Both the position numbers and the translations under genes were made by a program. A stretch of DNA of 51,929 nt from a virus (lineage: Duplodnaviria; Heunggongvirae; Uroviricota; Caudoviricetes), in the IMG/VR virus record IMGVR_UViG_2541047794_000002, positions 1 through 51,929 of that record. One strand, written 5' to 3'. Under the pieces are notes generated by a model. It saw only the letters and a program-made list of their open reading frames with translations, was not told the DNA's origin and did no database searches. Shown here piece by piece: positions 26,880 through 27,416 of this stretch. Numbering within the stretch: the first letter of the stretch is position 1; each line of letters opens with the position of its first letter.

Positions 26880-27416
26880 TTATAAGAGATTAAATCCAAA
26901 TAAAGAGTAATCATATACCGGGGTGCATTGCATCCCACTGAATATGCTGATGTTTTTTTCTATTTCTATCCTTTTTTCAATAAGTTGTTGTATATTTTTA
27001 CAGTACAATTTGTGTGTGATGTTATTATCGTAAGCCTGATATAGCAACGTCAATGTTGATGCTATGAAACATGCAGAAAGAAAATGAACTAGTACATGTG
27101 AGCGTTTTTTGGTTGTCCATGATGCATTCGCTTGTGAAATATAAATCATTCTGAGAATGATAATGATGATAGACAGTAACAGACCACTCAATAAAATAAG
27201 TATTGGGTTTGCGTATTTAATTAATGGTTGAGAGCAAAAAACTATTATAGCTCCTGTGACTGCGTATGAGAAAAAGGAGTAATTAAACTTCTTACTCCTT
27301 CTCTCAAGTATTTTAATTTCATCTTGCGTGGGGGTTTTAGATGCCTCCAATATAAGTTTATTAAATGTTTCTGTTATCTTGTTTTTTGTGTTTGTGGCTA
27401 TTTTTTTTAGATTCAT
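26880..27416 (-). CDS. Unknown AT-rich membrane protein (about 3 predicted TM segments); candidate cargo/exclusion gene
   Basis: 178-aa ORF with three long hydrophobic stretches; much lower GC than flanking genes; opposite strand to int/alpA. Confidence 0.55.
   Translation of the reverse strand: MNLKKIATNTKNKITETFNKLILEASKTPTQDEIKILERRSKKFNYSFFSYAVTGAIIVFCSQPLIKYANPILILLSGLLLSIIIIILRMIYISQANASWTTKKRSHVLVHFLSACFIASTLTLLYQAYDNNITHKLYCKNIQQLIEKRIEIEKNISIFSGMQCTPVYDYSLFGFNLL

What the first reader, a model, noticed from the sequence alone, without database searches (positions are those of the whole stretch)
26880..27416. AT-rich three-pass membrane protein between alpA and the element's regulatory region
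A 178-aa ORF with three long hydrophobic segments, oriented opposite to int/alpA, with strikingly low GC relative to the rest of the element. Small membrane proteins at this location in integrative elements are often exclusion or abortive-infection factors, but nothing in the sequence identifies a function.
Basis: inference. Interest (0 to 1): 0.5.

Follow-up and report, generated by a model that had tools for sequence, protein, structure and literature searches.

The report
Orphan membrane cargo gene in satellite hotspot
This is a real, intact gene for a small three-pass inner-membrane protein of an undescribed family, carried as swappable cargo in the defence-gene slot of a phage satellite that sits inside its helper prophage's capsid gene; it is probably a phage-exclusion factor, but that is inferred, not shown.

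Summary
ORF 26880-27416 (-) encodes 178 aa with three hydrophobic helices, at 31.5% GC against 45% for the element, convergent with alpA. It is a real gene: all 24 copies examined are intact, dN/dS is 0.04 over aa 1-80, and 67 of the 68 complete E. coli genomes with the ORF carry it full-length. The element is a published type, a helper-embedded PICI inserted in a lambdoid major capsid gene. The ORF lies in a ~919-bp cassette in the satellite's 5' variable slot. Sibling elements with 97-99.9% identical int-alpA carry a TIR protein (PADLOC PDC-S35), a DUF2971 protein, a putAbiC protein or an unknown gene there instead. The protein matches nothing in Pfam, PHROGs, PADLOC, NCBIfam, PDB or BFVD. 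An exhaustive HMMER search found a tiny stand-alone family (Enterobacterales, Pseudomonas). Its conserved residues are the TM1-TM2 loop and a two-cysteine C-terminal tail, both predicted periplasmic. One member (36% identical) occupies the same slot in a Kosakonia satellite. Best reading (about 0.35): a SieA-like, single-gene, envelope-level phage-exclusion protein. The function is untested. Interest is modest: a defence candidate from a new family, not a new principle.

The parts
26880..27416 (-). Target gene: 178-aa predicted inner-membrane protein with 3 TM helices, predicted N-terminus in and C-terminus out. Invariant family residues are F48, P64, P71, C139, Q143, F159 and C164.
   Evidence: ORF; hydropathy and charge; purifying selection; 24/24 copies intact; family alignment; AF2 model pLDDT 83.5
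26803..27721 (.). Swappable ~919-bp low-GC cassette holding the gene, its 305-bp upstream DNA and its terminator. Similarity to sibling elements with other cargo ends at 26801/26802. Similarity to satellites with an empty slot resumes at about 27722.
   Evidence: Breakpoints; composition
27457..27485 (-). Promoter-like site (TTTACC-17-TATCAT, 9/12 match) 40 bp upstream of the ATG. It is a consensus match only. The surrounding upstream region is highly conserved among copies.
   Evidence: the number of such sites is not above chance; upstream 12/384 variable columns
26836..26871 (.). Perfect 14-bp-stem hairpin between the convergent alpA and target genes, with T-rich sequence on both sides. Likely a bidirectional terminator.
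27052..27200 (-). Hypervariable patch inside the gene (about aa 73-122: TM2, the predicted cytoplasmic loop, and the start of TM3). It defines two main haplotypes.
   Evidence: 38 of the ORF's 59 variable alignment columns fall here; dS 0.53 and dN 0.49 for aa 81-113
27767..28069 (-). YlcI/YnfO-family (ribbon-helix-helix-like) gene, upstream of and co-oriented with the target. It forms part of the satellite's conserved divergent regulatory core together with the Icd-like gene.
   Evidence: NCBIfam YlcI_YnfO_N 8.5e-20; phrog_6522; conserved in other PICIs
26583..26810 (+). alpA (satellite activator/excisionase family), convergent with the target
   Evidence: Pfam Phage_AlpA 3e-15; RefSeq annotation
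25346..26581 (+). Tyrosine integrase of the capsid-E-targeting HE-PICI clade
   Evidence: Pfam; 88% identical to the integrase of the Kosakonia HE-PICI
25173..25182 (.). attL identity block AGCCGAAGCA (left end of the satellite)
   Evidence: Joining the flanks at this block restores a 341-aa lambda-E-type capsid gene.
36611..36620 (.). attR identity block AGCCGAAGCA (right end of the satellite)
35690..36451 (-). Second cargo slot (3' end of the satellite): a 253-aa AbiJ-like protein, low GC
   Evidence: PADLOC AbiJ 2.2e-21. Replaced by DUF262+HEPN genes (NsnA/PD-T4-2-like) in NZ_CP024138.
24938..25213 (+). N-terminal fragment of the helper prophage major capsid gene, interrupted by the satellite
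   Evidence: Pfam Phage_cap_E positions 1-78 of 329; pseudogene annotation in RefSeq
36625..37401 (+). C-terminal fragment of the helper prophage major capsid gene

Best explanation
The ORF is a functional, optional cargo gene in the 5' variable slot of a helper-embedded PICI satellite (the capsid-E-inserted '11capE' type). It encodes a stand-alone small inner-membrane protein of a previously undescribed family. Predicted layout: a variable cytoplasmic N-terminal helix, three TM helices, a short conserved periplasmic TM1-TM2 loop (QPLxKYxNP), and a conserved ~50-residue periplasmic tail in which TM3 continues as a long helix. Two invariant cysteines (C139, C164) probably form a disulfide that staples the tail into a hairpin. 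I propose that it is made in the lysogen, either from its own upstream region or by read-through from the YlcI-like regulator gene. I propose that its periplasmic face blocks genome entry of competing phages at the inner membrane, in the manner of P22 SieA or HK97 gp15, and so protects the cell that carries the helper-satellite composite. Shown: the gene is real, is under purifying selection, is the commonest cargo of this slot, and has no partner gene. Inferred: the topology, the disulfide, expression in the lysogen, and the exclusion function.
For: Real gene. Cargo of a genuine hotspot: the int-alpA module is present in 175-179 complete E. coli genomes. Similarity stops at the end of alpA. 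The slot holds the target ORF in 68 genomes, TIR/PDC-S35 in 37, DUF2971 in 36, putAbiC in 11 and an unknown 305-aa gene in 6 (family hits). The putAbiC gene has the same orientation and lies 32 bp downstream of ylcI. The literature says PICIs carry immune systems at their 5' and 3' ends (PMC11364771), and the 3' slot here holds an AbiJ-like gene. Phage-linked relatives: a 36%-identical homolog lies in the same slot and orientation in a Kosakonia HE-PICI whose integrase is 88% identical. That combination of conserved backbone and fast-diverged cargo is what arms-race genes show. Another member is an opposite-strand moron in the head operon of an unidentified prophage. Another lies 49 bp downstream of a type XI retron, with SoFic-like and DUF4238 genes nearby. 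Stand-alone: no conserved neighbour across about 10 contexts. Envelope-facing: the invariant and near-invariant residues lie in the TM1-TM2 loop and the C-tail. The TM2-TM3 loop is net positive in all 20 members and carries at most one acidic residue, and the C-tail is close to charge-neutral with exactly 2 Cys in all 20. [quoted passage not shown]
Against: There is no functional data. No similarity was found to any known exclusion, abortive-infection or defence protein. Several family members lie in ordinary chromosomal or plasmid surroundings with no phage or defence genes: Ewingella between DUF2756 and LysR genes and a Pantoea plasmid among metabolic genes. Hotspot neighbours are guilt by association, and one slot occupant (305 aa) is also unknown. 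The promoter-like match is no better than chance, and at 31% GC the gene could be H-NS-silenced. The topology and the disulfide are predictions; I could not obtain model coordinates to measure the Cys-Cys distance. SieA's conserved motif is cytoplasmic, whereas this family's is predicted periplasmic.
Confidence: 0.35

Rival explanations
1. Abortive-infection-type membrane effector. The protein senses infection and permeabilises or depolarises the inner membrane, killing the infected cell before phage release. Comparable cases are other single-gene or effector membrane proteins such as putAbiC, RexB and retron 2TM effectors.
For: A putAbiC-family, N-terminally membrane-anchored protein occupies exactly the same position and orientation in sibling elements. 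One family member lies 49 bp downstream of, and co-oriented with, a type XI retron RT-protease. The 3' slot holds an AbiJ-like gene.
Against: The cytoplasmic parts that would have to sense infection are the least conserved: the N-terminus ranges from 12 to 48 aa and the TM2-TM3 loop is hypervariable. No charged or polar residues are conserved inside the TM helices. Type XI retrons are described as single-gene systems (PMC7736814), and only one of about 10 contexts shows the retron adjacency. There is no homology to putAbiC.
Confidence: 0.15
2. Orphan immunity protein against a membrane-acting toxin such as a pore-forming bacteriocin or a T6SS/contact-dependent effector. Comparable cases are the 3-TM (N-in, C-out) colicin E1-type immunity proteins.
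For: Small polytopic inner-membrane protein, AT-rich, with a conserved periplasmic face. One member follows a T6SS tssF-G-J block in Pantoea. One is about 3 kb from a pyocin S gene.
Against: No Pfam hit to any colicin or microcin immunity family in any of 20 members. The pyocin nearby is a nuclease type that is followed directly by a small (85-aa) gene, probably its own immunity gene. The Pantoea islet carries an HNH protein, not a recognisable effector. None is on a Col-type plasmid: the E. coli protein has no plasmid hit, and the only plasmid hit (query P0010) is a copy among metabolic genes. The DUF443 whisper appears only in the two E. coli alleles.
Confidence: 0.1
3. A host-physiology cargo gene unrelated to phage or toxin conflict, for example envelope stress, colonisation or a transport accessory function, that hitch-hikes in the satellite's permissive slot.
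For: Some family members are stable stand-alone chromosomal genes among housekeeping genes (Ewingella, 10 contigs) or on a metabolic megaplasmid. Satellites also carry non-defence accessory genes (PMC11773190).
Against: In E. coli the gene was found only inside this satellite lineage: every E. coli copy whose context I examined, 27 in all, lies there. The other identifiable occupants of the slot are defence-type genes. A 36%-identical homolog sits in a backbone whose integrase is 88% identical, which suggests rapid antagonistic evolution.
Confidence: 0.2
4. A satellite life-cycle function, for example modulating helper lysis timing, helper interference, or satellite transfer.
For: It lies next to the satellite's regulatory core and downstream of the YlcI-like regulator.
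Against: About 62% of sibling satellites with the same backbone lack it. Its orientation is opposite to the induced int-alpA and replication/late operons. The predicted topology (N-in, C-out) and size do not fit class I holins, which are N-out/C-in and about 105 aa (my own knowledge), and the helper supplies the lysis genes. Homologs exist outside satellites.
Confidence: 0.08
5. Not a functional gene: a chance ORF in AT-rich spacer DNA.
For: Flat GC across codon positions; no curated family hit.
Against: 0 of 2000 shuffles reach this length. dN/dS is 0.04 over aa 1-80. All 24 copies are intact even though the ORF is more variable than its flanks. Homologs at 24-36% identity with invariant motifs occur in other genera. 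The AF2 model is confident once the homologs are supplied.
Confidence: 0.02

Closest known systems
P22 SieA (superinfection exclusion protein A)
   Same: Single gene that is sufficient on its own; 162-164 aa against 178 aa here; three predicted TM helices; inner-membrane protein. It is encoded on the strand opposite the adjacent late genes, with its own promoter. It exists as highly diverged sequence types (less than 30% identical), comparable to the 24-36% identity within this family (PMC10883804).
   Different: No detectable sequence or profile similarity (hhalign probability 0.13%). SieA's conserved motif FxRYPxEAxxFNK is predicted cytoplasmic, whereas this family's conserved residues and Cys pair are predicted periplasmic. 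SieA is carried by a phage, this gene by a satellite. The function of the present gene is untested.
HE-PICI '11capE' (helper-embedded PICI in the lambdoid major capsid gene; Tommasini, Mageeney & Williams 2023, PMC10111431)
   Same: The surrounding element matches the description: an int-alpA-primase satellite of about 11.4 kb, co-oriented with and inserted in the E-type capsid gene at about Pfam Phage_cap_E position 80, with a 10-bp attL/attR identity block and its own E-family capsid gene.
   Different: That paper describes the zone after alpA as a 'Bro' dynamic zone holding Bro-N proteins and immunity RNAs. Term searches of it gave 0 hits for 'membrane', 0 for 'cargo' and 1 for 'defense', and the section read does not discuss membrane or defence cargo there. 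In this lineage the slot holds defence-type or unknown cargo and no Bro-N gene.
PICI 5'/3' immune hotspots (Fillol-Salom et al. 2022, as cited in PMC11364771)
   Same: Variable accessory genes lie at the int-proximal and distal ends of Gram-negative PICIs. Here both slots vary between siblings and hold PADLOC-recognised genes.
   Different: The target protein itself is not in PADLOC, and no accession match was found in the searchable literature.
Pfam putAbiC (PF16872) protein in sibling elements
   Same: Same slot, same orientation, directly downstream of the YlcI-like gene, membrane-anchored.
   Different: Unrelated sequence (hhalign probability 0.12%). It has one N-terminal TM helix plus a soluble domain, against 3 TM helices plus a short Cys-pair tail here.
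Lambda cI-rexA-rexB arrangement
   Same: A regulator gene followed on the same strand by a polytopic membrane protein gene, divergent from the lytic/replication operon. In Kosakonia the spacing is only 66 bp. The lambda side of this comparison rests on my own knowledge.
   Different: No PHROG hit of any kind; there is no RexA-like partner; there are 3 TM helices, not 4; in the window a 350-bp spacer separates the two genes.

Membership tests
HE-PICI, capsid-E site (context of the gene) | Satellite with int and alpA co-oriented with, and inserted inside, a helper prophage late gene | tested here: met
   Capsid-gene N- and C-terminal fragments flank the int-alpA...primase element. In-silico excision restores a 341-aa capsid protein.
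HE-PICI, capsid-E site (context of the gene) | Integration at about position 80 of the Phage_cap_E profile, with a short attL/attR identity block | tested here: met
   The N-terminal fragment matches profile positions 1-78. The 10-bp block AGCCGAAGCA occurs at both ends. The paper reports a 10-bp block.
HE-PICI, capsid-E site (context of the gene) | Primase/replication zone and a late zone with captured late genes | tested here: met
   D5_N/DUF5906 primase, SSB, own Phage_cap_E capsid gene, decoration protein and TerS-like gene.
P22 SieA family | Sequence or profile homology to SieA types A-C, including the FxRYPxEAxxFNK motif | tested here: not met
   hhalign of the family profile against P22 SieA gives probability 0.13%. 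The motif is absent from the sequence.
P22 SieA family | Inner-membrane protein of about 160-180 aa with three TM helices, acting alone | tested here: inconclusive
   Size, three TM helices and the lack of a conserved partner are met by prediction and context. Membrane location has not been measured.
P22 SieA family | Blocks phage DNA injection | not testable with these tools
   Needs plating, potassium-efflux and DNA-entry assays.
P22 SieB / Esc | Sequence homology | tested here: not met
   hhalign probability 0.22%.
Known anti-phage defence proteins (PADLOC-DB v2) | Match to any of the 5027 defence-protein models | tested here: not met
   0 families at E <= 0.1.
Known phage protein families (PHROGs v4, which should include RexB, Imm, gp15 and holins) | Match to any PHROG | tested here: not met
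   0 families at E <= 0.1. tblastn against 50,697 phage records found no match.
Pore-forming colicin/microcin immunity proteins | Match to a Pfam immunity family, and linkage to a bacteriocin gene | tested here: not met
   No such Pfam family appears among the hits of 20 members. There is no adjacent pore-forming bacteriocin gene in any context, and no copy on a Col-type plasmid.
Pfam DUF443 | Score above the gathering threshold, recurring across family members | tested here: not met
   19.2 bits against a cutoff of 26.2. Only the two near-identical E. coli alleles hit it, 2 of 20 members.
Retron-associated membrane effector (e.g. type IV 2TM) | Consistent adjacency to a retron RT/ncRNA | tested here: not met
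   Only P. mandelii P0018 is adjacent to an RT (type XI), and type XI retrons are described as single-gene systems. The window element has no RT.
Class I holins | 3 TM helices with N-out/C-in topology, about 105 aa, located in a lysis cassette | tested here: not met
   The charge distribution predicts N-in/C-out. The protein is 178 aa and lies outside any lysis cassette; the helper's lysis genes are elsewhere. The holin criteria come from my own knowledge.
Pfam putAbiC (PF16872) | Profile match | tested here: not met
   No Pfam hit. hhalign against the sibling putAbiC protein gives probability 0.12%.

The most novel reading that the evidence does not exclude
The protein founds a new family of single-gene, envelope-acting anti-phage proteins. 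A 3-TM anchor presents a disulfide-stapled periplasmic helical hairpin that jams the genome-delivery apparatus of incoming phages. It is the commonest cargo of a satellite that lives inside its helper's capsid gene, so it would defend the helper-satellite composite against competitors. The hypervariable TM2-loop-TM3 patch and the 36%-identical positional ortholog in Kosakonia would then be traces of an arms race.
Probability: 0.3. Interest if true: 0.55.

Novelty: new member of a known kind. Interest (0 to 1): 0.35.

Why it matters
If the protein excludes phages, it adds an unannotated family to the short list of single-gene inner-membrane exclusion proteins. PADLOC, PHROGs, Pfam and NCBIfam all miss it. 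It has a testable structural idea: a conserved periplasmic loop plus a two-cysteine tail. It would also show what the commonest cargo of helper-embedded satellites does, and whether a satellite nested in its helper's capsid gene protects the composite. In practical terms the gene occurs in about 1.3% of complete E. coli genomes, including AIEC strain NRG 857C and many avian, clinical and other isolates, so it could affect phage susceptibility in typing or therapy. If it has no phage phenotype it is one more orphan membrane gene, and the finding is ordinary.

Tried and rejected
- **Curated libraries:** Pfam, PHROGs, PADLOC and NCBIfam gave nothing usable. The sub-threshold DUF443 hit was rejected because only the two E. 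coli alleles hit it, 2 of 20 members.
- **Word-seeded homology search:** it found only E. coli near-identical sequences. The exhaustive HMMER search was needed to find the family.
- **PDB sequence profile:** nothing.
- **Direct comparisons:** hhalign against P22 SieA, P22 SieB and the sibling putAbiC protein showed no relationship.
- **Retron partnership:** considered after the P. mandelii context. Rejected as a general rule because type XI retrons are single-gene systems and no other context repeats the adjacency.
- **YlcI-like gene as a specific partner or antitoxin:** rejected. The YlcI-like gene is part of the regulatory core of many satellites that lack the target.
- **Rfam over the element:** only a sub-threshold SymR-like hit and a spurious miRNA hit, and no C4/isrK RNA.
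- **Phage and plasmid collections:** no match for the E. coli protein.
- **Literature:** no paper mentions WP_001049528 or WP_001049527.

Full report
**1. The observation**

The ORF is exactly as described: 26880..27416 on the minus strand, ATG start, 178 aa. A GGGAG Shine-Dalgarno sequence lies 10 nt upstream of the ATG. Kyte-Doolittle 19-residue windows give three hydrophobic segments at about aa 46-66, 72-93 and 107-127. GC is 0.315 for the ORF, flat across codon positions, against 0.452 for the element and 0.495 for the window.

It is not a chance ORF:
- None of 2000 shuffles of the AT-rich interval gave an ORF of 178 codons or more; the maximum was 147.
- Between the two main alleles, aa 1-80 differ by 6 synonymous and 1 non-synonymous change (dN/dS 0.04).
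- All 24 copies I could extract are 537 nt with no premature stop.
- The ORF is full-length in 67 of the 68 complete E. coli genomes that carry it, and every listed record annotates it as a CDS. The exception is truncated by IS5.

**2. The context**

The gene sits in an ~11.4-kb satellite. Its genes are int (25346-26581), alpA (26583-26810), a YlcI-like/Icd-like divergent pair, DUF4222, a D5_N primase, SSB, its own E-family capsid and decoration genes, a TerS-like gene and an AbiJ-like gene.

The satellite is inserted inside the major capsid gene of a lambdoid prophage. The capsid gene's N-terminal fragment (Phage_cap_E profile positions 1-78) ends just before int, and its C-terminal fragment follows at 36625-37401. 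A 10-bp identity block, AGCCGAAGCA, lies at 25173-25182 and 36611-36620. Joining the flanks at that block restores a 341-aa capsid protein.

This is the published 'helper-embedded PICI' of the 11capE / E:Phage_cap_E:80 type (Tommasini, Mageeney & Williams 2023, PMC10111431). The embedding is therefore already known and is not part of the novelty here.

**3. The slot is a cargo hotspot**

The same int-alpA module (95% identity or more) occurs in about 176 complete E. coli genomes. In many of them similarity stops at window 26801/26802, the end of alpA. In satellites with an empty slot, similarity resumes at about 27722, 45 bp beyond the ylcI stop codon. That defines a ~919-bp low-GC cassette holding the ORF, 305 bp of upstream DNA and a 14-bp-stem hairpin (26836-26871) shared with the convergent alpA.

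Slot census among complete E. coli genomes:

| Cargo | Genomes | Evidence |
|---|---|---|
| Target ORF | 68 | |
| TIR protein, PADLOC candidate PDC-S35 (E 7e-67) | 37 | |
| DUF2971 protein (weak PDC-S31 match), next to a SWIM protein | 36 | |
| Pfam putAbiC protein, same orientation as the target, 32 bp downstream of ylcI | 11 | |
| Unknown 305-aa protein | 6 | |

Caveat: I did not verify the context of every counted hit. The target is the commonest cargo.

The satellite's 3' end is a second variable slot. It holds an AbiJ-like gene here and NsnA/PD-T4-2-like DUF262+HEPN genes in NZ_CP024138. [quoted passage not shown]

In more distant satellites that share the YlcI-like regulator, the alpA-ylcI interval is empty or holds Bro-N/HTH genes or small ORFs. 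YlcI is therefore part of the regulatory core and not a specific partner of the target.

**4. The protein**

No curated library recognises it: Pfam, PHROGs, PADLOC and NCBIfam. The word-seeded search of 5.8 billion clusters found only E. coli sequences at 87% identity or more. An exhaustive HMMER pass over 1.84 billion representatives found about ten true relatives at 24-36% identity and 113-175 aa (full-length members 148-175 aa). A profile search and cluster look-ups extended these. The members come from Kosakonia/Phytobacter, Citrobacter, Ewingella, Enterobacter, Escherichia marmotae, Pantoea and Pseudomonas.

In a 20-sequence alignment:
- Invariant residues are F48, P64, P71, C139, Q143, F159 and C164. 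Near-invariant residues are Q63, K67, N70, G78 and K154.
- These cluster in the TM1-TM2 loop (QPLxKYxNP) and in the C-terminal tail (H-D-x-Y-C...LQ...EKNSxIFxxMxC).
- In all 20 members the TM2-TM3 loop is net positive with at most one acidic residue. The C-tail is close to charge-neutral and holds exactly two cysteines.

By the positive-inside rule this predicts the N-terminus in and the C-terminus out. That places both conserved elements and the Cys pair in the oxidising periplasm, so a disulfide is likely. This is an inference.

With 15 homologs, AlphaFold2 gives a confident all-helical model (pLDDT 83.5, pTM 0.62). TM3 runs on as one long helix (103-147) through C139 and Q143 and is followed by a short helix (152-161) that ends just before C164.

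**5. Contexts of relatives**

- **Kosakonia sp. S29:** the closest distant homolog (P0009, 36% identical) lies in the same slot and orientation of an HE-PICI in the capsid E gene. Its integrase is 88% identical and its alpA about 90% identical to those in the window. There the gene lies 66 bp downstream of a 59-aa YlcI-like ribbon-helix-helix gene. A conserved backbone with a fast-diverged cargo gene is typical of conflict genes.
- **Unidentified prophage (NinE/NinG/Q genes):** the closely related P0020 is an opposite-strand moron between head genes of a prophage whose host I did not identify; its closest named relatives are from Enterobacter.
- **Pseudomonas mandelii:** 49 bp downstream of a type XI retron RT-protease, with a SoFic-like Fic gene and a DUF4238 gene nearby.
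- **Pseudomonas sp. R3-56:** a variable region with a pyocin S gene and a PDC-M29A ATPase.
- **Pantoea chromosome:** a 2.8-kb low-GC islet with an HNH protein, after a T6SS block.
- **Ewingella:** a stand-alone gene among housekeeping genes.
- **Pantoea megaplasmid:** a stand-alone gene among metabolic genes.

No neighbour is conserved across these contexts, so the protein acts alone.

**6. Population detail**

Among the 24 E. coli-type copies, the ORF is more variable (59 of 538 columns) than its flanks (12 of 384 upstream, 3 of 179 downstream). Thirty-eight of the 59 variable columns lie in one patch, window 27052-27200, about aa 73-122. For aa 81-113, dS is 0.53 and dN 0.49. This is the region that is least conserved across the whole family. 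It is either an imported diverged tract or a locally unconstrained or diversifying segment.

**7. Mechanism**

The best-supported reading is a single-gene, envelope-level exclusion protein analogous to P22 SieA. SieA is 162-164 aa with three predicted TM helices. It is an inner-membrane protein, is sufficient alone, and blocks DNA injection. [quoted passage not shown] It is reverse-oriented next to late genes with its own promoter.

The analogy is organisational only. Profile comparison shows no homology to SieA, SieB or putAbiC. SieA's conserved motif is cytoplasmic, whereas this family's is predicted periplasmic.

I favour exclusion over abortive infection because the conserved surface faces the periplasm and the cytoplasmic parts are variable or missing. 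This is inference, and I put it at about 0.35. The rivals are abortive infection (0.15), toxin immunity (0.10), non-conflict host physiology (0.20), a satellite life-cycle role (0.08) and a spurious ORF (0.02).

**8. Verdict**

The element and its embedding are known. The protein family is undescribed. Its most probable role, a small membrane exclusion or defence cargo in a satellite hotspot, is a known kind of thing. Interest is modest (0.35). It is a clean candidate that can be tested cheaply.

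Noticed in passing
window 25173-36620 (fragments of the interrupted gene at 24938-25213 and 36625-37401): The whole ~11.4-kb satellite is inserted inside the helper prophage's lambda-E-type major capsid gene. A 10-bp attL/attR block (AGCCGAAGCA) marks both ends, and in-silico excision restores a 341-aa capsid protein. This matches the published HE-PICI '11capE' type (PMC10111431).
   Followed up: yes
window 35690-36451 (-): A low-GC 253-aa AbiJ-like gene (PADLOC AbiJ 2e-21; phrog_23253) sits at the satellite's 3' end. In NZ_CP024138 the same position holds DUF262 + HEPN genes (NsnA/PD-T4-2-like). This is a second swappable defence slot.
   Followed up: partly
window 27052-27200 (inside the target ORF, about aa 73-122): A hypervariable patch: 38 of the ORF's 59 variable alignment columns among 24 copies lie here, while the flanking DNA is at least 97% identical. 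For aa 81-113 dS is about 0.53 and dN about 0.49. It is either an imported diverged tract or local diversification of TM2, the cytoplasmic loop and TM3.
   Followed up: partly
window 28211-28283 (-): A sub-threshold Rfam hit to the SymR antitoxin RNA (35 bits against a gathering score of 61, E 0.0012) lies in the divergent YlcI-like/Icd-like regulatory region. No C4/isrK-type immunity RNA was detected, although the HE-PICI paper reports such RNAs in some satellites.
   Followed up: no
window 32511-35000: The satellite carries its own E-family major capsid gene (346 aa), a head decoration gene (113 aa) and a TerS-like gene (phrog_57, 3e-53), even though it interrupts the helper's capsid gene. 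Which capsid protein builds satellite particles remains an open question.
   Followed up: no
L005:8303-10447 (Pseudomonas mandelii, AZQQ01000096.1): A family member lies 49 bp downstream of, and co-oriented with, a full-length type XI retron RT-protease (PADLOC 1e-174), which is described as a single-gene system. A SoFic-like Fic gene and a DUF4238 gene lie nearby. This is a possible unrecognised retron accessory gene, or simply co-location in a defence island.
   Followed up: partly
L020:8543-9154 (-) (Kosakonia sp. S29 HE-PICI): The same slot in the Kosakonia satellite also holds a 203-aa protein with an N-terminal TM helix, co-oriented with int/alpA. It has no Pfam or PADLOC hit and is another unannotated cargo gene.
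   Followed up: partly
L001:5712-5906 (helper prophage; by offset about window 18411-18605, not verified in the window) and window 27767-28069: Both the helper prophage and the satellite encode YlcI/YnfO-family proteins. The satellite's copy is its leftward regulator-like gene. This may be a point of helper-satellite cross-talk.
   Followed up: no
window 27729-28643 (+): A 304-aa plus-strand ORF runs antisense across the YlcI-like gene. In related satellites RefSeq annotates overlapping 'Icd-like' or 'ash family' pseudogene fragments at this position. It is probably a remnant or not a gene.
   Followed up: no
window 9000-11500 and 14500-16500: Other markedly low-GC stretches (0.33-0.40) occur in the helper prophage part of the window. 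By analogy with NZ_CP024138 they may include moron genes such as a porin. I did not examine them.
   Followed up: no
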